Shown: piece after piece, positions 617 to 26,021 of the stretch
How the letters are laid out: every line of letters begins with the position of its first letter
How positions within the stretch are numbered: the first letter of the stretch is position 1
Source: a virus
Taxonomy: Duplodnaviria > Heunggongvirae > Uroviricota > Caudoviricetes
Direction: 5' to 3' (one strand)
Virus record (IMG/VR): IMGVR_UViG_2706794686_000007
Length of the DNA stretch: 33,508 nucleotides
The notes under the pieces: model-generated
What the model was told of the DNA's origin: nothing
Database searches by the model: none
The model's input: the letters and a program-made list of their open reading frames with translations, nothing else
Position numbers and translations under genes: made by a program

Positions 617-1760
617 TTATATACTTGCAGCCGTCACCCATGCTCCATTTAACAGATACTGCAACGGCCGGTAATACACGCCGCCGACGTTATCTGCCGT
701 ATTCTTACCGACATCCTGTACTTTAATTCCGGTAAGAACATTGCCGCCCCCCAGATTCAGANNNNNNNNNNNNNNNNNNNNNNNNNNNNNNNNNNNNNNN
801 NNNNNNNNNNNNNNNNNNNNNNNNNNNNNNNNNNNNNNNNNNNNNNNNNNNNNNNNNNNNNNNNNNNNNNNNNNNNNNNNNNNNNNNNNNNNNNNNNNNN
901 NNNNNNNNNNNNNNNNNNNNNNNNNNNNNNNNNNNNNNNNNNNNNNNNNNNNNNNNNNNNNNNNNNNNNNNNNNNNNNNNNNNNNNNNNNNNNNNNNNNN
1001 NNNNNNNNNNNNNNNNNNNNNNNNNNNNNNTCTCTGCTCCCAGCCTGATATCCTGGATATATCGGGAATCCGCATCCTGCTGTGTTATACCAGAAGTGAT
1101 GTTTATGTCCTGCGTCCCGTCAAAGGGAACCCCATTAATATTTCTTGGGGTGGCGAGTCTATTCGCGGCAACGGCGGTGCCGTCCGATGGCAGAGCATTC
1201 GCCGCCCTGTTTACCGTTTCCCGTAAACCGACGTTATCGATAAAAGCCCCTTTATCCGGAATGTCTGCGCCGTTCTGCTCCCTGCGCAGGTAACGGTTAT
1301 CACCTTCGCTTTTGCTGTAAACATCCAGATTATTACGGGCGGTTCCCTTATTCTCCAGGTCGGCGAGATTCTGATCCTTCGCCAGGGCATTAACGTCAGC
1401 GGGACCAAGACTGTTTTTTGTGGCAAGCGTCCCCAGACCAAGATAACCACGGGCCAGACGCTGGGCCTCCGCACCGGCATCAGCAATTTCTTTCAGGTTA
1501 TTTTTCCGGGAAAAGGCATTCGCAGCGATAATGGCTTTAATGGACAGCGTAAGCTGGTTTAACTGCGCCTTATCCGGCTGAATACTGGCTTCAGCCAGAA
1601 TATTCAGCAGTTCGGCCTGGAGAATATTCAGCCAGTCCTGACCAATCCAGCTGATACCTTTTTGTCCGTCACCTTCGGTAAACCAGGTGGTGGTATTACT
1701 CTGCGCCGGTGCCAGCGCAGGCATATTCGCCACGCCGGAATTATTATCAACATGAAACAT
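617..1760 (-). CDS. tail fibre protein (Mu S / P2 H-like C-terminal region), interrupted by N-mask 762-1030
   Basis: ORF from 1760 runs into the N-run; motifs [23 protein letters not shown] and C-terminal [17 protein letters not shown] resemble P2 gpH as I recall it. Frame across the mask cannot be verified. Confidence 0.75.
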
Positions 1761-6893: not shown

Positions 6894-8937
6894 AGTTCCC
6901 TCCGTTCCAGACGTTCACATCCAGGCCATGCTGTGCGGTATCATCCACATCAATACTGCGCGCCCGCCAGCCTTCAGGGGCAACAAGCTCCACCCGTGCG
7001 GCGGTTTTCGCGGTGGCCTGTCCGCCGTTTTCGTCACTGCCGCCACGCAGTTTCTGCCAGGCCTGCGTCAGCCAGCCCCCCAGATAATCACCGAGATAGC
7101 TGCCCACCGTGGAACCAATGGCAACCCCGACCGGACCGGCAGCCGCCCCCAGCGCGCCACCGGCGATACTTCCGGCAAGGGAACCCACGGCACCGGCTTT
7201 ATCGGCTGCACTGGCGCTGCTGTCCAGCAGTACAGGAGCCGCCATGGCACCGGCCCACAGGGCACCACCACCCAGCCGACCGGCACCACGGAACAGCCCG
7301 GCAAAACGCCCCAGCCCCATGCGGTTTCCGGCCGCCGTTAGCAGACCACCGGCACGGCTCATCATACGACCGAAGAAGCCCTGTTTACCGGCACTCTCCG
7401 CCAGTTGCTCACCGGCAGTCACGACGGTCGTGACACCCCGTCCACGTCCGGGGCCGCGTTTTTTACGGCCGCGCACGGTTTTGCCGTCACCGCTGACCAC
7501 CACATCCCCGCCACCTGAGGCCAGGCCACCCGCAGGCCAATTGGTGACCAGCACGGGCTGAACGGCAGCCGGATTTACCCCGGTAAGGAAATTCAGGAAC
7601 CGGCCAGCGCGTCCGGGCTGCGTTCCCGGTACAGTGGTCTGCGGTTTGCGGAAGGGCGACGTCAGCACGGAGGTCATCGCCATGCCATAGCGTAAGGGGG
7701 TTGCGCCGAGACGTAATGCCCCCGTCCCCGCAAACCTGAGCACCTTCAGCGCACGGGAGGCGAGATACATATACATCAGGTACTTTGCGGCGGTCTGCGC
7801 ACCCTGACCAATGCGATCCAGCGCATCGCCATAACCGGCGTCGCGCAGTGCCTGAAGCGTTTCCCTGACTTTCTGAATGACCCGGTAAAAGCCGGTCGCA
7901 GCGTCTCTGGCATACTCAAATCCCTGATTCAGGGCTGAGGCCGTCTGTGTGGCCAGCTTATCCTGTAAGCCGCTTTTCTGTGCCGCATCAGCATAATCCA
8001 GAAAGCCTTTCAGGCTCTTTTTCAGGCTGTCAAACGGTCCCTTTGCCATCACCTCGCGGGCAAATCCGTCCCAGACATCGCCCATCATGGACGTCATTCC
8101 CGTCCAGGAATTCATGGCGTTTTTCTGGGCACCTTTTGCCTGTTCGGCCATCACCTGAAATAACAGGCGAATGCTGTCCGGTCCCAGTTTTCCTTTCTCG
8201 CCTTTCTCACGGATGATCTTCTGGTTTACACCCAGCTTATCGGCCAGCAACTGGTAAACGTTAATCCCGTATCCGGTCAGAATATTGGCGTCCGCTGCCT
8301 GGATACTCTGGCGGGCAAACATCTGTTTGAGTTGCAGGGACGCACCCTGTGCATCTGACAGTGACCAGCCGTGATAGCCGCCCTGATCCTGAAGCATGGT
8401 AATAAAGCGACGGGCTTCCCTGTCACTCATACCGAACCCGCGACTGGAGGCGTATTCCTGCATAACCCCCGCCAGCCCCCAGGTGGTGTCTTTGGCGTTC
8501 TGTACCGCCCAGGCTTTCACTGCTTCCGTTTTTGCCGTATCGCCATGATTAATGGCGTTGAGACGCAGAATATAGTTCTCCATCTCTGCGGCCGGGCGGA
8601 TAAAGGCTTTATTAAACCCGTAGACCGCAGCCCCTCCCGCCAGCATCCCGTAAAGGTTGCTTATCCGCCCGATGGTGCCGGTAATGCTGCCCTGAAGGCG
8701 GTCAAAATCTGACGTCACCGTGCGGATACTGCCACGAACACCGGCAAGCGTTCGCTGCATACGGGAGCCGACAAGTTCTGTCTCCTGACCGGCACGACGT
8801 GCTGCATTTCCAAGACCACCCAGCCCCGTCCTGCCGGAACGGGAGAATGCCCCCAGCTCCTGTGACCACTGGCGGGATTTGGCAGAAATATTGCCGAGTA
8901 AATCGACAATCAGGGAGGCTTTCAGGTTTTTTGCCAT
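6880..8937 (-). CDS. tail tape measure protein
   Basis: 685-aa ORF, Gly/Ala-rich with a low-complexity C-terminal third, downstream of the tail assembly chaperone. Confidence 0.8.
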   Translation of the reverse strand: MAKNLKASLIVDLLGNISAKSRQWSQELGAFSRSGRTGLGGLGNAARRAGQETELVGSRMQRTLAGVRGSIRTVTSDFDRLQGSITGTIGRISNLYGMLAGGAAVYGFNKAFIRPAAEMENYILRLNAINHGDTAKTEAVKAWAVQNAKDTTWGLAGVMQEYASSRGFGMSDREARRFITMLQDQGGYHGWSLSDAQGASLQLKQMFARQSIQAADANILTGYGINVYQLLADKLGVNQKIIREKGEKGKLGPDSIRLLFQVMAEQAKGAQKNAMNSWTGMTSMMGDVWDGFAREVMAKGPFDSLKKSLKGFLDYADAAQKSGLQDKLATQTASALNQGFEYARDAATGFYRVIQKVRETLQALRDAGYGDALDRIGQGAQTAAKYLMYMYLASRALKVLRFAGTGALRLGATPLRYGMAMTSVLTSPFRKPQTTVPGTQPGRAGRFLNFLTGVNPAAVQPVLVTNWPAGGLASGGGDVVVSGDGKTVRGRKKRGPGRGRGVTTVVTAGEQLAESAGKQGFFGRMMSRAGGLLTAAGNRMGLGRFAGLFRGAGRLGGGALWAGAMAAPVLLDSSASAADKAGAVGSLAGSIAGGALGAAAGPVGVAIGSTVGSYLGDYLGGWLTQAWQKLRGGSDENGGQATAKTAARVELVAPEGWRARSIDVDDTAQHGLDVNVWNGGNYGLY

Positions 8938-9135: not shown

Positions 9136-9541
9136 GCAGGCTTACTGCCGCCATCAGTCGGGAGAGATCGCGCTCGCTGAGCTGTCCTATCTGACGCGGA
9201 GACAATGGCCCCTCAATCTGGCCGACAGCGGCAATCTGACGGCGCAGCAGCGCAATGCCGCGCAGTGCCGGTGAGGCCACAAGAACCGGACCGTTTCGGG
9301 TTTCCATAAGACGCTCGGCCTCGCTCTCCGCATCAATGCTGTCTTTTGCCGTCAGTTCGCGGAAGGTGACGCGGTATTCACGGGATTCCCCGAACGGCAG
9401 ACCGTCGAGCAGATCCACATAGCCGTTCGCCAGTTGTTCAGCCAGCCCGGCGGTGCGGGGATCGCCGTCTTCAAGTGCATCCCGGATAGCCTCCATCACG
9501 GCCTCGTCAGAAACCGCCGTTTTTTTCTTACGTGTGCTCAT
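9065..9541 (-). CDS. tail assembly chaperone (Mu gp41-like)
   Basis: 158-aa acidic ORF between the tail tube and tape measure genes, the conserved chaperone position. Confidence 0.55.
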   Translation of the reverse strand: MSTRKKKTAVSDEAVMEAIRDALEDGDPRTAGLAEQLANGYVDLLDGLPFGESREYRVTFRELTAKDSIDAESEAERLMETRNGPVLVASPALRGIALLRRQIAAVGQIEGPLSPRQIGQLSERDLSRLMAAVSLLDSAMAGKLVAERGRPDAVPGSD

Positions 9542-22893: not shown

Positions 22894-23335
22894 GACCGGG
22901 GAGTTTTACCCCCTTTGAATAAATCCAGCGGATATACTGCTTACAGGACGCGGGCATCTGCCCGGCATTGATAAGGCGCAGGAGCGTGGAGTTGCGAAAG
23001 TTCGTTTCACCGGCCCAGAAAATCCAGGAGGCCAGCGCCACCGTCTGACCACGGGTAAGCGGCACCTGAACATGACGATCGATAGCCGCAAAGGCCCATT
23101 TCATGTCCTTTTCCAGCAGCTCCAGACACTCTTCATCAGTTTTTGTCATCCCCGGTTTCACATCCGGGCCGGTATGGCCGTAACAGATGGTGGGGGTGCC
23201 GGTGGGATCAATGTACGTGGTGTTTTCTTTCCCTTCCCAGTAGCCGGTGTAGTGCGTGGCAATGGTGAACGTCCCGGCTCCGGCCAGAACAAGGGCAATC
23301 AGCTTTTTACGCAGGGGTGCGGGGAGTTTTGGCAT
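22835..23335 (-). CDS. SAR endolysin (T4-lysozyme-like GH24)
   Basis: 166-aa ORF; Gly/Ala-rich weakly hydrophobic N-terminus (LIALVLAGAGTFTIAT); catalytic-region pattern E-x8-D-x5-T (WEGKENTTYIDPTGTPTICYGHTG). Confidence 0.8.
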   Translation of the reverse strand: MPKLPAPLRKKLIALVLAGAGTFTIATHYTGYWEGKENTTYIDPTGTPTICYGHTGPDVKPGMTKTDEECLELLEKDMKWAFAAIDRHVQVPLTRGQTVALASWIFWAGETNFRNSTLLRLINAGQMPASCKQYIRWIYSKGVKLPGLEARRSADEWLCRYDLPKV

Positions 23336-23401
23336 TGTTACGCTGTCTCATGGTGTTCTCTGAGTCAGCGTAACCGTGAGGAAAAGGGGGCAGGATTTGC
23401 G

Positions 23402-23842
23402 NNNNNNNNNNNNNNNNNNNNNNNNNNNNNNNNNNNNNNNNNNNNNNNNNNNNNNNNNNNNNNNNNNNNNNNNNNNNNNNNNNNNNNNNNNNNNNNNNNN
23501 NNNNNNNNNNNNNNNNNNNNNNNNNNNNNNNNNNNNNNNNNNNNNNNNNNNNNNNNNNNNNNNNNNNNNNNNNNNNNNNNNNNNNNNNNNNNNNNNNNNN
23601 NNNNNNNNNNNNNNNNNNNNNNNNNNNNNNNNNNNNNNNNNNNNNNNNNNNNNNNNNNNNNNNNCCGCCTGAGCAGGTTCAATCCCCTGACGGTGCAGTT
23701 CAGCACTGATCACATCAACCAGGTCCCGCAGCGTGCCGGGCCAGTTCTTTTTCAGCTCATCATCAGGAATATCATCCAGACGGTCAATCAGCGCGTGCAG
23801 CTGTTCGCTGTCACCAAACATGCTCATCTGTGTTTCAGCCAT
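23402..23842 (-). CDS. Mor/C-family transcriptional activator, 3' part N-masked
   Basis: N-terminus MAETQMSMFGDSEQLHALIDRLDD…GIEPAQA resembles the Mu Mor N-terminus as I recall it; SD GGAGG upstream; the rest is hidden by the N-run. Confidence 0.55.
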
Positions 23843-23872
23843 ACCCGCCTCCGGTCATCATTACACAGGGCA

Positions 23873-23906
23873 AGTTTAAAATAAAAATCCCGCGCTGTGG
23901 CGGGAT
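23873..23906 (-). terminator. intrinsic terminator-like hairpin between gemA and the Mor/C-family gene
   Basis: Minus strand: ATCCCGC-CACAGC-GCGGGAT (7-bp stem) followed by TTTTATTTTT. Confidence 0.5.
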
Positions 23907-23912
23907 TTGGGG

Positions 23913-24425
23913 TTAACGGGGGAATGATTTTTCATACAGCCTGCAAACACGCTCATAACTCATCACTGCACGTTCCGACATATCCAGGGCTGCCAGCATT
24001 TTGCGGCGGTGCCAGCGTTTGAGACGCTCCAGCACATCAGAGGCCAGCGCGGGTTGTTGCTCCAGCCACTGCCAGTTAGCCACACCTTCGCCGTCGTTCT
24101 GCGCGGCCGTCTGCGATTTCACCCAGCGGTTAAGGGCCGTTTCCCCGCCATCAGAGATAAATCCCTGCCGGTGCATCACTTTCCAGATGGCGCGAATTTT
24201 GGCGGTCACCGTACCCGGTTTTAAGGCCCGGTTAACCGGCTTCTGACGCACTTTAAAACCGCGTTTTTTGAAAACATCCAGCACGCGGGATAACTCACCG
24301 GGTGACATATCACGGCAACTGGATTTGCCGGTGGCTGCCAGCAGCGCGGATGTATAGGTATCATGGTCAAGCTGTAGATCGCGTTTTGCGACATGTATTA
24401 AGGTAATCAGGGAAGCGCGATTCAT
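23913..24425 (-). CDS. gemA: GemA-like regulatory protein (Mu gp16, DUF1018-type)
   Basis: 170-aa ORF; N-terminus MNRASLITLIHVAKRDLQLDHDTY…GKSSCRDMSPGEL… resembles the GemA/gp16 family; sits upstream of the Mor/C-family gene as in Mu. Confidence 0.65.
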   Translation of the reverse strand: MNRASLITLIHVAKRDLQLDHDTYTSALLAATGKSSCRDMSPGELSRVLDVFKKRGFKVRQKPVNRALKPGTVTAKIRAIWKVMHRQGFISDGGETALNRWVKSQTAAQNDGEGVANWQWLEQQPALASDVLERLKRWHRRKMLAALDMSERAVMSYERVCRLYEKSFPR

Positions 24426-24437
24426 TATCGTGGCTCC

Positions 24438-24467
24438 ATAAAAAATGGGCGGTGTTACCGCACCGCC
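24438..24467 (-). terminator. intrinsic terminator-like hairpin upstream of gemA
   Basis: Minus strand: GGCGGTG-CGGTAA-CACCGCC (7-bp stem) followed by CATTTTTTAT. Confidence 0.45.
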
Positions 24468-24495
24468 ATGTCAATTAACATAAAAGGAAAAATCT

Positions 24496-24735
24496 ATGTC
24501 AGATATAAAAAATGCACTTGATGTTGCCGCATTCACAATGGCTGGAAATCTTATGGTAACCCTGTTCGATAAGGGGCTGATTTCCCGTGAGGAGGCAATA
24601 CATATTATCAATCTCGCTCAAAAAAACTCTACCCCGGAAAATGCAGAAGATATCCAGGATGGCTCATATATTAATACCGACTGGCATTTCGACAATCTCC
24701 GGGCCTGTATGGGGATTACCGCTGAAAAAGATTAA
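24496..24735 (+). CDS. hypothetical protein, plus-strand gene antisense to the early operon
   Basis: 79-aa ORF with SD (aaaggaaaaatct-ATG); AT-rich block; 3' end overlaps the convergent 24716-25018 ORF by 20 nt. Confidence 0.5.
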   Translation: MSDIKNALDVAAFTMAGNLMVTLFDKGLISREEAIHIINLAQKNSTPENAEDIQDGSYINTDWHFDNLRACMGITAEKD

Positions 24736-25018
24736 AAATTTTTGCATAATGTTCAGATGTAAGAATTGCTGAACCATCAACACCGAGCCTACGGCGAACG
24801 TATTCCTCGCGGGCTATTTTATTATCCAGAGATACAGCATCCTTAATCAGGTTAATCTCCCGCTCCATTATCAAAAGGGCTTCTCTGGCTGCAAGATTTT
24901 CTTTTATCGCATATTCGATAATGTCCCGCATACGTTCAAGCATGCCGATTTTAGCCAGTTCTTCGTCGATAGATTTAGGCGCAAATTTGATTTCTTTTTC
25001 CATATTATTCATCCTCAC
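24716..25018 (-). CDS. hypothetical coiled-coil protein (AT-rich moron)
   Basis: ORF-track start is GTG at 25018; ATG starts at 25010 or 25003 (MEKEIKF…) are more likely. Charged, helical-looking sequence. Confidence 0.5.
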   Translation of the reverse strand: MRMNNMEKEIKFAPKSIDEELAKIGMLERMRDIIEYAIKENLAAREALLIMEREINLIKDAVSLDNKIAREEYVRRRLGVDGSAILTSEHYAKIFNLFQR

Positions 25019-25148
25019 AATTTATACATGCAGTGTCGTCGCCCATATCGCAGTGGTTACATTTTATCTCACCACAATGTGGGCACTCTTTCAGATACTC
25101 CGGGTCCTCATTTCCACAGGTGGGACATTCAACAATTTGCTCATCCAT
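25005..25148 (-). CDS. zinc-ribbon microprotein (four CxxC pairs), absent from the ORF track
   Basis: Hand translation: MDEQIVECPTCGNEDPEYLKECPHCGEIKCNHCDMGDDTACINCEDE (47 aa). SD AGGGGA upstream; ATG overlaps the upstream stop (ATGGATGA); its stop overlaps the next start. Confidence 0.4.
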   Translation of the reverse strand: MDEQIVECPTCGNEDPEYLKECPHCGEIKCNHCDMGDDTACINCEDE

Positions 25149-25473
25149 TATGTATCCCCTGTAATTCCGGCAAGGCCGAAAGATGGCACCAGTGCGTCAC
25201 CTGTCCGTCCTCATCTTCAAGGCAGGCTCCGGTTTCTTCATCAATAAAAAAGCCTTCATACCCCATATGGCCGATGCGCAGTTCCTGTTGGTCACCATAC
25301 TGAACAATCAGCACGACAGCCTCCATATCAGGCGGAAATGCGTCATCCAGTGAATGCCAGGGATAACCGCGCAAATCCCCGAAATAAACGCCGGTCAGCG
25401 TTCCGCCACAGAGCGGCATTCCGGCGGCACACACAAGAGGTTCATCTGATTCAACAAATAAGGTCGTTATCAT
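25141..25473 (-). CDS. hypothetical early protein
   Basis: 110-aa acidic ORF, translationally coupled to both neighbours. Confidence 0.45.
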   Translation of the reverse strand: MITTLFVESDEPLVCAAGMPLCGGTLTGVYFGDLRGYPWHSLDDAFPPDMEAVVLIVQYGDQQELRIGHMGYEGFFIDEETGACLEDEDGQVTHWCHLSALPELQGIHNG

Positions 25474-26021
25474 GGCGTTAACTCCCGTAATACAGCGTCC
25501 TCGGCAGTCCGGCGACGGTAATAAACTGCGTGAGCAGAATGTTCAGATATTCCAAACTTTTCGCCAATTTCCCGGAATGACAGACGGCGTGGGTAATCGG
25601 AATCACGCAGCTCACGTATAAGACGTACATCATCATCAGATATGCGCGTGCCGGGGCGTAACTCTCCGCACTTTGTTAATCCAGCACCAATCATTCCTGC
25701 CCGACATCTGACAGAATCTTTATTACGTCCGAGATATTCTCCCATTTGCTGGCAGGTCATTGTTCTGGCATTTTTTCGAATAAACTTATCTTCATCAGGT
25801 GTAAATCTTGGGTGTTTATATTTCAGTAACTCCGGGTATGAACTGCGCAATACACCAGTCCGGTTATATACAGCCCAGACAGTTCTTTTTATTCTGGCAG
25901 CAATATCCTTAACCGGGGTGGATGAATAAAGCGCAATCAGCAGCGCATCTTCTTCAGGTGTCCACGGACGGACATGAGCGGGGGCGCGACCTTTTAGTCC
26001 CATGGGTTGTAATTTCATCAT
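25470..26021 (-). CDS. DNA-binding protein with three tandem HTH-like repeats
   Basis: Three repeats begin WTPEEDALL…, FTPDEDKFI…, ISDDDVRLI…, each followed by a basic helix; the last resembles a sigma region-4-like HTH (RLSFREIGEKFGISEHSAHAVYYRRR). Confidence 0.45.
   Translation of the reverse strand: MMKLQPMGLKGRAPAHVRPWTPEEDALLIALYSSTPVKDIAARIKRTVWAVYNRTGVLRSSYPELLKYKHPRFTPDEDKFIRKNARTMTCQQMGEYLGRNKDSVRCRAGMIGAGLTKCGELRPGTRISDDDVRLIRELRDSDYPRRLSFREIGEKFGISEHSAHAVYYRRRTAEDAVLRELTP

What the first reader, a model, noticed from the sequence alone, without database searches (positions are those of the whole stretch)
24438..25148. AT-rich convergent gene pair plus zinc-ribbon microprotein embedded in the early operon
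The 24496-25148 block is visibly more AT-rich than the flanking genes. It holds a plus-strand 79-aa gene with its own SD, antisense to the minus-strand early operon, overlapping by 20 nt the 3' end of a convergent 100-aa coiled-coil gene; immediately upstream on the minus strand is an unannotated 47-aa four-CxxC microprotein. A terminator-like hairpin (24438-24467) sits between the cassette and gemA. This looks like a horizontally acquired moron, possibly expressed from the prophage (exclusion, toxin/antitoxin-like or anti-defence). I recognise none of the three proteins.
Basis: seen in the sequence. Interest (0 to 1): 0.65.

Follow-up and report, generated by a model that had tools for sequence, protein, structure and literature searches.

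The report
Phage Mu genes 13-15 homologues
The AT-rich block is this Mu-like prophage's copy of phage Mu early genes 13, 14 and 15, long-annotated genes of unknown function, and not a foreign insertion; what is new is that the backwards-facing gene 15 has its own ribosome site and its own terminator hidden inside gene 14.

Summary
The ORFs, the Shine-Dalgarno site, the 20-nt overlap, the low GC and the hairpin are all present. The hairpin is terminator-like on the minus (early) strand, not the plus strand.

The three "unrecognised" proteins are homologues of phage Mu proteins:
- The 47-aa zinc ribbon matches gp13 (88% identity).
- The 95/100-aa helical protein matches gp14 (49% identity, E 4e-29).
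- The plus-strand 79-aa protein matches gp15 (profile-profile probability 97%, E 1e-10, N-terminal 56 residues). RefSeq annotates gp15 as a leftward gene, Mup15.

The gp14 and gp15 homologues travel as a convergent pair beside gemA in all 11 loci examined, from E. coli, Klebsiella and metagenome contigs. The zinc ribbon also occurs without them.

Window-to-Mu nucleotide identity is 72% in the block. It is 71% and 70.5% in two flanking segments, so this is not a recent acquisition. The slot is nevertheless a swap site: 232 of 5,426 E. coli genomes match the 2.2-kb query spanning gemA, the block and its right-hand flank, but only 14 carry this block.

New here: a stem-loop plus U-tract on the gp15 strand lies inside gp14 codons. 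It is more stable than 95.5-100% of synonymous recodings in 10 of 11 loci. gp15 therefore looks like an autonomous antisense unit. No promoter was found, and no hit points to a toxin or defence function. Function remains unknown.

The parts
24438..24467 (-). GC stem-loop (stem 24448-24454 / 24461-24467, loop TTACCG) followed on the minus strand by a U-tract (24439-24446) and then the gemA Shine-Dalgarno site. It is terminator-like for the early (Pe) transcript, and it lies where the Mu GenBank record places the 'semi-early' gem promoter.
   Evidence: One search lists it as a terminator-like site on the minus strand. One search finds it in all 12 loci folded, Mu included, with different stem sequences that still pair (L012, L002, L022, L023). 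One search gives the Mu promoter annotation at 8151-8217, which covers the equivalent hairpin.
24484..24488 (+). Shine-Dalgarno site (AAGGA) of the gp15-like gene, 7 nt before the ATG.
   Evidence: An AGGA-type Shine-Dalgarno sequence sits upstream of the start codon in all 11 homologous loci, one of which starts at TTG.
24496..24735 (+). Homologue of Mu gp15: a 79-aa, all-helical protein encoded antisense to the early operon. Conserved motifs are FDxAAFTxAGNLLxTLxxKGxxSxxEA and WHxDNL.
   Evidence: phrog_32893, E 1.3e-45. Only 9 representatives among 1.84 billion. hhalign against the Mu gp15 subfamily gives probability 97%, E 1e-10. RefSeq annotates Mup15 on the same strand and at the same position. 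Frame test. AF2 model pLDDT 80.4.
24786..24825 (+). Proposed intrinsic terminator of the gp15 unit: stem-loop 24786-24815 and U-tract 24816-24825, embedded in the gp14 codons DNKIAREEYVRRRLG. It starts 51 nt after the gp15 stop codon.
   Evidence: an equivalent stem-loop with a U-rich tail lies shortly after the gp15 stop in 10 of 11 loci; the 54-nt segments extracted for folding begin 16-77 nt past that stop; it is more stable than 95.5-100% of synonymous recodings in those 10 loci. The window copy is the weakest (-10.8 kcal/mol, lowest 4.5%). The Mu equivalent, 7839-7873, is annotated as a TransTermHP terminator.
24716..25003 (-). Homologue of Mu gp14 (formerly E15): 95 aa from ATG 25003, with alternative starts at 25012 and 25018. 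It is a helical hairpin protein translated from the early transcript. Its 3' end overlaps gp15 by 20 nt.
   Evidence: BLASTP against Mu gp14: 49% identity, E 4e-29. phrog_6075, E 6e-44. AF2 model pLDDT 87.8. A gp14 homologue lies convergent with every gp15 homologue examined.
25005..25148 (-). Homologue of Mu gp13 (formerly E14): a 47-aa microprotein with four CxxC motifs, presumably binding two zinc ions. It lacks the 19-residue N-terminal extension of Mu gp13.
   Evidence: 88% identity to Mu gp13 over 41 residues, E 9e-26. phrog_5584, E 3e-26. Six of the eight Cys are invariant and the first two nearly so across 12 sequences. It occurs without gp14/gp15 in L024.
24445..25157 (.). Extent of the exchangeable cassette, defined by where similarity to prophages carrying other cassettes stops.
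   Evidence: flanking similarity ends at 24398-24444 on the left and resumes at 25135-25158 on the right.

Best explanation
The block is this prophage's version of the gp13-gp14-gp15 segment at the right end of phage Mu's semi-essential early region.

Shown or directly read from sequence:
- gp13 (zinc-ribbon microprotein) and gp14 (helical protein) lie on the early-operon strand, so they would be translated from the early Pe transcript.
- gp15 lies on the opposite strand, with its own Shine-Dalgarno site. A stem-loop with a U-tract follows it, built into the gp14 codons N-K-x-A-R...R-R-x-L-G.
- A second conserved stem-loop with a U-tract lies on the early strand, just before the gemA ribosome site. 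The Mu GenBank record annotates a separate 'semi-early' gem promoter there.

Inferred:
- Early transcripts cross gp15 in antisense and tend to stop at the gemA-proximal hairpin. gp15 transcripts stop inside gp14. The two RNAs would then be complementary over about 380 nt (24448-24825).
- This would make expression reciprocal. Once Pe fires, gp15 is silenced by transcriptional interference and RNA pairing. While Pe is repressed, as in a lysogen, gp15 can be made and its RNA opposes stray gp14 message.
- gp14 and gp15 are always inherited together, so they probably act on one process as a lytic-phase and a repressed-state partner.
- What that process is remains unknown. These are accessory genes, not core functions, because most related prophages have replaced the cassette.

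The confidence given (0.6) applies to the identity of the genes and the transcript architecture taken together. Identity as Mu gp13-15 homologues alone is about 0.95. The reciprocal-expression step alone is about 0.35.
For: - Homology to Mu gp13, gp14 and gp15, in the same order and orientation. UniProt lists the Mu protein as GP15_BPMU.
- The gp15 frame is conserved with its Shine-Dalgarno site in 11 loci at 18-49% identity to the window protein.
- gp14 and gp15 homologues co-occur as a convergent pair in 11 of 11 loci, with overlaps of 4-98 nt. In L024 both are deleted together and only their first codons remain.
- The embedded stem-loop has a U-tail on the gp15 strand only, and is more stable than 95.5-100% of synonymous recodings in 10 of 11 loci.
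- The gemA-proximal hairpin is present in all 12 loci folded, with stem variants that still pair and a T-rich tail on the early strand.
- The Mu record annotates a promoter over that site. The gem operon is reported as constitutively expressed in lysogens (Paolozzi and Ghelardini 1992, seen only as a reference title in PMC3820752).
- Divergence from Mu equals that of the aligned flanks.
- A 212-nt tract, 24365-24576, spanning the gemA start, the hairpin and the gp15 start, has 1 variable site among six variants. Elsewhere there are 6-20 per 100 nt. This fits dense regulatory signals there.
Against: - No positionally conserved sigma-70 promoter was found for gp15. There are no transcript data, so both gp15 expression and its timing are inference.
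- The window's embedded stem-loop is the weakest of the set (-10.8 kcal/mol). The tool's own terminator scan did not list it.
- In Mu the U-tract after the gemA-proximal hairpin is poor (CCCCTTTCC), so termination there may be weak. That hairpin could instead be a 5' element of the gem transcript or a protein-binding dyad.
- In the embedded terminator, the U-tail is largely dictated by the Asn-Lys codons and is not enriched beyond expectation.
- gp15 types have been swapped behind nearly identical gp14 N-terminal parts (window against L014). This argues against tight protein-protein co-evolution.
- Five of 10 close gp15 protein clusters are frameshifted in the C-terminal half, so that half may be dispensable or decaying.
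Confidence: 0.6

Rival explanations
1. Horizontally acquired moron. On this view the cassette is a foreign insertion expressed from the prophage, giving the host exclusion, toxin-antitoxin-like or anti-defence activity.
For: - Presence/absence polymorphism at one slot in related prophages.
- Lower GC than the flanks.
- gp15 is antisense to the lytic operon, with its own Shine-Dalgarno site and terminator.
- Another cassette in the same slot (L002) also carries a reverse-oriented gene (DUF2513) with the same hairpin layout.
Against: - The same three genes, in the same order and orientation, are in phage Mu, and SfMu and a Yersinia Muvirus annotate the gp14-gp15-gemA part of that arrangement.
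- Window-to-Mu nucleotide identity in the block (72%) equals that of the aligned flanks (71%, 70.5%).
- Mu's own block is also low in GC.
- Two of the three genes are on the lytic strand and so are not moron-like.
- No PADLOC hits for the three proteins, only sub-threshold Pfam and NCBIfam hits, and no informative fold matches.
Confidence: 0.12
2. The plus-strand ORF is not a gene. On this view the interval codes on the early strand, as the current GenBank Mu record assumes with its forward ORF 'Mu_54', or it is an untranslated 3' region. The apparent conservation of the antisense frame would then be a by-product.
For: - The early strand also has long stop-free stretches here (53-75 codons). 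The Mu_54 frame shares its wobble position with gp15.
- AF083977 annotates Mu_54.
- No promoter was found for gp15.
- Frameshifted gp15 variants are common.
Against: - Every early-strand frame carries stop codons in 10 of 11 loci.
- Early-strand ORFs with a start codon vary from 19 to 65 codons, with no conserved start.
- The gp15 frame is open end to end in all 11 loci, with an AGGA-type Shine-Dalgarno sequence upstream of its start codon.
- BLOSUM per codon is 1.42 against 0.36 in favour of gp15, in 54 of 54 pairs.
- HMMER finds gp15 relatives at E 2e-11 to 9e-4 in 1.84 billion proteins.
- AF2 gives a confident helical bundle.
- RefSeq Mu, SfMu and Yersinia phage Tongde all annotate the leftward gene.
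Confidence: 0.06
3. gp15 is a small regulator of the neighbouring gem (gemA-mor) promoter. On this view the GC dyad GGCGGTG-N6-CACCGCC is its operator and not a terminator, so the arrangement is a divergent regulator-operon pair.
For: - The gene lies head-to-head with gemA in most loci.
- The dyad sequence is nearly identical across loci whose proteins share only 40-50% identity.
- The 212-nt tract around the dyad is almost invariant.
- The Mu record places a promoter over it.
- The KGxISxxEAxxII segment loosely resembles a helix-turn-helix motif. This is my reading of the sequence, not a tested result.
Against: - No helix-turn-helix family hit in Pfam or NCBIfam.
- The stem varies by changes that keep pairing, and it is followed by a T-rich tail. 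That is the signature of an RNA hairpin, not of a fixed operator sequence.
- In L023 the neighbouring gene is not gemA.
Confidence: 0.12

Closest known systems
Phage Mu genes 13, 14 and 15 (Mup13/E14, Mup14/E15, Mup15; UniProt GP15_BPMU), at the right end of the semi-essential early region
   Same: Same three protein families, in the same order: gp13, then gp14, then gp15 on the opposite strand, then a hairpin, then gemA. gp14 and gp15 converge and overlap in both. The stem-loop inside gp14 and the stem-loop before gemA are also shared.
   Different: - gp15 here is only about 18-23% identical to Mu gp15. It belongs to a WHxDNL subfamily with a different C-terminal third.
- gp13 lacks the 19-residue N-terminal extension.
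- Two extra genes (183 aa and 110 aa) lie between gp12 and gp13.
- In Mu gemA and mor overlap; here they are separated by a terminator-like hairpin.
- None of the three Mu proteins carries a functional annotation in the records consulted, so the match names the genes but does not explain them.
Short antisense transcripts convergent with a lytic gene in lambdoid phages, such as lambda oop RNA opposite the 3' end of cII (recalled from the literature, not tested here)
   Same: A short leftward transcript ends inside the 3' part of a rightward gene, so the two RNAs are complementary and can silence each other.
   Different: The antisense transcript here would be a protein-coding mRNA of about 330 nt or more. 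No RNA data exist for it, and no promoter has been identified.
Phage morons (autonomous promoter-gene-terminator units inserted between conserved genes)
   Same: gp15 has its own ribosome site and terminator, lies opposite to the surrounding operon, is lower in GC, and sits in a slot that varies between related prophages.
   Different: It is old and co-diverged with the backbone. It is always paired with a lytic-strand gene. Its terminator is built into that neighbour's codons instead of arriving with the gene. No promoter was found.
Mu middle promoter Pm overlapping the terminator at the end of the early operon
   Same: In the Mu record a GC hairpin predicted as a terminator (9179-9200) lies inside an annotated promoter (9163-9233). 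The gemA-proximal hairpin likewise lies inside the annotated semi-early promoter (8151-8217).
   Different: Pm is Mor-activated and well studied. The gem-proximal element is taken from an annotation line only, and I could not read the cited paper (PMID 9454718).

Membership tests
Mu gp15 family (GP15_BPMU; phrog_32893) | Sequence homology to Mu gp15 | tested here: met
   hhalign of the window subfamily (A5) against the Mu subfamily (A9): probability 97%, E 1e-10, over the N-terminal 56 residues. The C-terminal third does not align. phrog_32893, E 1.3e-45.
Mu gp15 family (GP15_BPMU; phrog_32893) | Encoded opposite to the early operon, between gp14 and gemA, convergent with gp14 | tested here: met
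   Same arrangement in the window, in Mu (complement 7896-8162), in SfMu, in Yersinia phage Tongde and in 9 prophage or metagenome loci. In two of those loci (L022, L023) the next gene is not gemA.
Mu gp14 family (E15; phrog_6075) | Sequence homology to Mu gp14, positioned upstream of and convergent with gp15 | tested here: met
   BLASTP 49% identity over 94 residues, E 4e-29. phrog_6075, E 6e-44. Synteny.
Mu gp13 family (E14; phrog_5584) | Sequence homology, including the eight Cys of four CxxC motifs | tested here: met
   88% identity over 41 residues, E 9e-26. Six Cys are invariant and two nearly so across 12 sequences.
Moron | Present or absent between otherwise related phages | tested here: met
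   14 of 232 related E. coli prophage regions carry it. Other cassettes occupy the slot in L002-L005.
Moron | Own terminator | tested here: met
   Stem-loop with U-tract on the gp15 strand, 24786-24825. It is more stable than 95.5-100% of synonymous recodings in 10 of 11 loci. This is a sequence inference only.
Moron | Own promoter | tested here: inconclusive
   No positionally conserved sigma-70 match upstream of gp15 in 11 loci. The single window hit, at 24335-24364 (9 of 12 positions), is not conserved.
Moron | Foreign origin, acquired independently of the backbone | tested here: not met
   Present in Mu itself. The block is 72% identical to Mu, against 71% and 70.5% for aligned flanking segments. 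Mu's own block is also low in GC.
Moron | Expressed from the repressed prophage | not testable with these tools
   Needs strand-specific RNA-seq of a lysogen.
Type II toxin-antitoxin pair | Two co-directional, co-transcribed genes, one with a recognisable toxin or antitoxin domain | tested here: not met
   The genes are convergent, not co-directional. No Pfam, NCBIfam or PADLOC domain passes threshold.
Known anti-phage defence systems (PADLOC) | Match to a defence-system protein model | tested here: not met
   No families matched for the three proteins at E <= 1.
Intrinsic (Rho-independent) terminator | GC-rich stem-loop immediately followed by a U-tract on the transcribed strand | tested here: met
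   - Minus strand, 24467-24439: 7-bp stem with 6 G-C pairs, followed by CATTTTTTAT.
- Plus strand, 24786-24825: imperfect stem followed by ATTTTATTAT.
- Whether either actually terminates transcription was not tested.
Double zinc ribbon / DnaJ-like CxxCxG zinc finger | Match to a curated zinc-ribbon model above its threshold | tested here: inconclusive
   All Pfam hits fall below gathering score: Zn_ribbon_LapB E 0.005, DZR E 0.03. The four-CxxC pattern itself is clear in the sequence.

The most novel reading that the evidence does not exclude
gp14 and gp15 form a convergent, antisense-coupled two-state switch that is conserved across enterobacterial Mu-like phages. On this reading gp15 is made only while the early promoter is silent, that is, in the prophage or before the commitment to lytic growth. 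It would carry out a lysogen-specific task, such as restraining the neighbouring gem operon or excluding a related phage. Early transcription would both silence gp15 RNA and supply gp14 as its lytic-phase counterpart. The terminator written into gp14's conserved codons would then be a dual-use coding and RNA signal kept by selection.
Probability: 0.15. Interest if true: 0.55.

Novelty: new member of a known kind. Interest (0 to 1): 0.3.

Why it matters
- **Correct naming.** The region should be labelled as homologues of Mu genes 13-15, not as a foreign moron. That prevents a false lead towards defence or toxin functions.
- **Support for the leftward gp15 gene.** Comparative evidence favours the leftward gene 15 of Mu. 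The current GenBank Mu record has replaced it with a forward ORF, Mu_54.
- **A testable transcript map for Mu biologists.** An antisense protein-coding unit appears to sit at the end of the early operon, bracketed by two one-way terminators. One of them is encoded inside conserved gp14 codons. This is a modest point.
- **A swap site for accessory genes.** The slot next to gemA exchanges small accessory genes between E. coli Mu-like prophages, and it also accepts other reverse-oriented genes.
- **Function still unknown.** None of this reveals what the three proteins do.

Tried and rejected
- **Family libraries.** Pfam, NCBIfam and PADLOC scans of the three proteins gave nothing above threshold. 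PHROGs placed each in a family of unknown function.
- **Rfam.** A scan of 23300-25600 at E <= 1 gave three weak matches, all in or next to gemA and mor, all below gathering score, and none in the block.
- **Wider locus searches.**
  - Both genome-contig scans found no relative in species-representative genomes.
  - IMG/VR gave one locus.
- **Promoter.** A consensus scan on both strands of 11 loci found no positionally conserved promoter for gp15.
- **Literature.** PMID 9454718, cited for the semi-early promoter, is not held. Searches for gp13, gp14 and gp15 of Mu returned only unrelated papers.
- **Programmed frameshift at the A7 run.** I considered this for A AAA AAC at 24620-24627. I rejected it as the main reading for three reasons:
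  - The run is absent from close variants.
  - The 0-frame C-terminus (WHxDNL) is conserved in distant homologues.
  - The frameshifted variants shift at several different positions.
- **Obligate three-gene module.** Rejected, because the zinc ribbon also occurs without the pair.
Full report
**1. What the window is**

The window is an E. coli Mu-like prophage lying in reverse, so the early operon runs on the minus strand. An identical region in E. coli JE86-ST05 is annotated with these genes in order: Mu transposase, AAA ATPase (MuB-like), Gam, a run of small hypothetical genes, the gp16 (GemA) family protein, Mor, and lysozyme. In the window, gemA is 23913-24425 (Pfam GemA, E 2e-28).

**2. 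Checking the observation**

All the sequence features are real.
- The plus-strand ORF is 24496-24735 (79 aa), with AAGGA 7 nt before the ATG.
- A convergent minus-strand ORF ends at 24716, giving a 20-nt overlap. It is 100 aa from GTG 25018. ATG 25003 (95 aa) is the likelier start: it has a GAGGA Shine-Dalgarno site 8 nt upstream, RefSeq uses it, and homologues begin there.
- The 47-aa ORF at 25005-25148 has four CxxC motifs. It is unannotated in the RefSeq genome.
- GC is 0.418 in 24445-25157, against 0.546 for gemA and 0.502 for the genes to the right.
- The hairpin has a 7-bp stem at 24448-24454 / 24461-24467. Its T-run follows it on the minus strand, so it is terminator-like for the early operon and sits immediately before the gemA Shine-Dalgarno site.

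**3. The block is a swap site**

A 2.2-kb query spanning gemA, the block and its right-hand flank matches 232 of 5,426 complete E. coli genomes. Only 14 carry this block. Similarity to prophages with other cassettes stops at 24398-24444 on the left and resumes at 25135-25158 on the right. The same slot holds other gene sets:
- In L002, a plus-strand DUF2513 gene convergent with a 102-aa gene, plus a 116-aa gene.
- In L003, four minus-strand genes.
- In L004 and L005, one or two genes.

**4. The plus-strand ORF is a real gene, and it has a fixed partner**

Close relatives are few: 10 clusters at 90% identity. An exhaustive HMMER search of 1.84 billion representatives found only 9 proteins. Seven of them share only 37-49% identity with the query and carry the motifs FDxAAFTLAGNLLxTL..KGxxSxxEA and WHLDNL.

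I recovered the genomic context of these relatives and of divergent relatives of the 100-aa protein. In every case:
- the gene lies opposite to the early operon of a Mu-like prophage;
- it converges on a 89-121-aa gene that is a homologue of the window's 100-aa protein (43-47% identity, E about 1e-23), with overlaps of 4-98 nt;
- an AGGA-type Shine-Dalgarno sequence lies upstream of its start codon.

gemA is the next gene in most of these loci.

The opposite (early) strand also has long stop-free stretches here, so I tested which strand codes.
- The early-strand frames carry stop codons in 10 of 11 loci.
- They have no conserved start.
- The gp15 frame scored higher in 54 of 54 pairs under 60% identity: BLOSUM62 per codon 1.42, against 0.36 for the frame that shares its wobble position. 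That alignment was built on the sense protein, which biases the score somewhat. The stop-codon and Shine-Dalgarno evidence does not depend on it.

Among six close variants, third codon positions carry most changes in gp14 (18 of 26), gp13 (6 of 9) and the flanking genes. The bias is weaker in gp15 (14 of 27), because a hypervariable linker at codons 40-53 takes many replacements.

**5. These are phage Mu genes 13, 14 and 15**

Mu itself has the same arrangement.
- Mu gp13 (E14, 60 aa) is 88% identical to the zinc ribbon.
- Mu gp14 (E15, 100 aa) is 49% identical to the helical protein (E 4e-29).
- On the complement of 7896-8162 lies an 88-aa ORF that RefSeq NC_000929 annotates as Mup15 (gp15). 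SfMu and Yersinia phage Tongde annotate the same ORF, and UniProt names it GP15_BPMU.

Profile-profile comparison of the window's subfamily with the Mu subfamily gives probability 97% and E 1e-10 over the N-terminal 56 residues. The C-terminal thirds differ.

Nucleotide identity between the window and Mu is 72% across gp13-gp14. It is 71% across the gp11 segment and 70.5% across the hairpin plus the gemA 5' end. The block has therefore diverged in step with the aligned flanks. Mu's own gp13-15 block is also lower in GC than its neighbours (0.46 against 0.53-0.55).

The module is therefore old, and it has been replaced by other cassettes in most E. coli relatives. The exact window protein occurs on at least 1,000 contigs of E. 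coli and Shigella sonnei. Other subfamilies are named from Klebsiella michiganensis, Citrobacter rodentium and Salmonella.

The zinc ribbon is a separate gene. In L024 it sits alone before gemA, next to the stumps of a deleted gp14-gp15 pair.

**6. Transcript architecture (new here, inferred from sequence)**

*The hairpin before gemA.* It is present in all 12 loci folded, Mu included. The common stem is GGCGGTG/CACCGCC. Other stems that still pair occur in L012, L002, L022 and L023. On the early strand a T-rich tail and then the gemA Shine-Dalgarno site follow it. The Mu GenBank record marks 8151-8217, which covers this hairpin and the first codons of gp15, as a "semi-early promoter". I could not read the cited paper. 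A 1992 paper title reports constitutive expression of the gem operon in lysogens; I saw it only as a reference in PMC3820752.

*A second stem-loop inside gp14.* It lies on the gp15 strand, shortly after the gp15 stop codon. The 54-nt segments extracted for folding begin 16-77 nt past that stop. It is made by the gp14 codons for A-R-x...R-R-x-L (for example AGCTCGCGAC...GTCGCGAGCT). A U-rich tail supplied by the N-K codons follows it. On the early strand the same hairpin has no U-tail.
- For 10 of 11 loci, the observed folding energy falls in the lowest 0-4.5% of 1,000 synonymous recodings of the same 12 codons. Codon choice is therefore selected for the stem.
- In the window this is 24786-24815 plus the tail at 24816-24825. 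It is the weakest copy, at -10.8 kcal/mol.
- In Mu it coincides with a TransTermHP terminator annotated inside gene 14.

*Taken together.* gp15 has a ribosome site, an ORF and a terminator of its own. Early and gp15 transcripts would be complementary over about 380 nt.

*Open points.* No positionally conserved sigma-70 promoter was found for gp15. A 212-nt tract (24365-24576) spanning the gemA start, the hairpin and the gp15 start is almost invariant among six variants that differ at 6-20 sites per 100 nt elsewhere. This fits dense regulatory signals, but a recent recombination tract would look the same.

**7. Function**

No family, defence-model or fold search gives a functional lead.
- gp14 is predicted as a helical hairpin (pLDDT 87.8).
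- gp15 is predicted as a small helical bundle (pLDDT 80.4).
- gp13 is a microprotein with eight cysteines, presumably binding two zinc ions.

My best reading is that gp13 and gp14 are lytic-phase accessory proteins. On that reading gp15 is a reciprocal, antisense-coupled partner made when the early promoter is silent. The architecture rests on sequence evidence. The timing and the biological role are inference.

**8. Verdict**

The "foreign moron" interpretation is only partly right. The genes are divergent members of known but uncharacterised Mu gene families. Interest is modest, resting on the conserved antisense unit with an in-codon terminator and on an apparent strand error in the current Mu GenBank record.

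Noticed in passing
Locus L027 (Mu AF083977, 7896-8162) compared with L031 (NC_000929): The current GenBank Mu record annotates a forward 55-aa ORF, 'Mu_54' (7960-8127), where RefSeq has the leftward Mup15/gp15. Comparative evidence favours gp15: the frame is open in all 11 loci, an AGGA-type Shine-Dalgarno sequence is always present, and BLOSUM per codon is 1.42 against 0.36.
   Followed up: yes
Locus L002, 826-1420 (E. coli TOE17, alternative cassette): A reverse-oriented DUF2513 gene occupies the gp15 position. It has its own GC hairpin next to gemA. About 30 nt after its stop, inside the convergent 102-aa gene, lies the hairpin CAGGCGGC-GACA-GCCGCCTG with a T-rich tail. This is the same layout, built from unrelated genes.
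   Followed up: partly
window 23885-23908 (minus strand): A strong terminator-like hairpin (9-bp stem followed by TTATTTTAAA) lies between gemA and mor. It is conserved in L002, L003 and L004. In Mu these two genes overlap and there is no such element, so mor may have a promoter of its own in this lineage.
   Followed up: partly
window 24365-24576: A 212-nt tract covers the first 20 gemA codons, the intergenic hairpin and the first 27 gp15 codons. It has a single variable column among six prophage variants, against 6-20 per 100 nt elsewhere.
   Followed up: partly
window 24620-24626 and 24587-24772: An A7 run (C AAA AAA C) lies in the gp15-like ORF. Five of 10 close protein clusters are frameshifted after about codon 43, at different positions. 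Four of them run into the +1 frame, which stays open to 24772 (tail ...KNFCIMFRCKNC). This could be decay in prophages, assembly error or something else.
   Followed up: partly
Locus L024, 4150-4290: This is a deletion derivative. gp13 is followed by the first six codons of gp14 and, on the other strand, the first few codons of a gp15-like gene. The hairpin and gemA are intact.
   Followed up: yes
window 762-1030, 23402-23664, 27359-27628: Three runs of N (263-270 nt) mask parts of the window. The second lies inside mor, which prevents analysis of that gene and of part of its surroundings.
   Followed up: no
NZ_CP027586.1, 3282920-3284427 (hit H11): An IS1A element is inserted within this block in E. 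coli 2012EL-2448.
   Followed up: no
window 25141-26021: Two genes lie between the gp12 and gp13 homologues that Mu lacks. One is a 183-aa SANT/Myb-like helix-turn-helix protein (phrog_323, 'transcriptional regulator, D5-like'). The other is a 110-aa protein (phrog_6925, with a weak DUF551 match).
   Followed up: no
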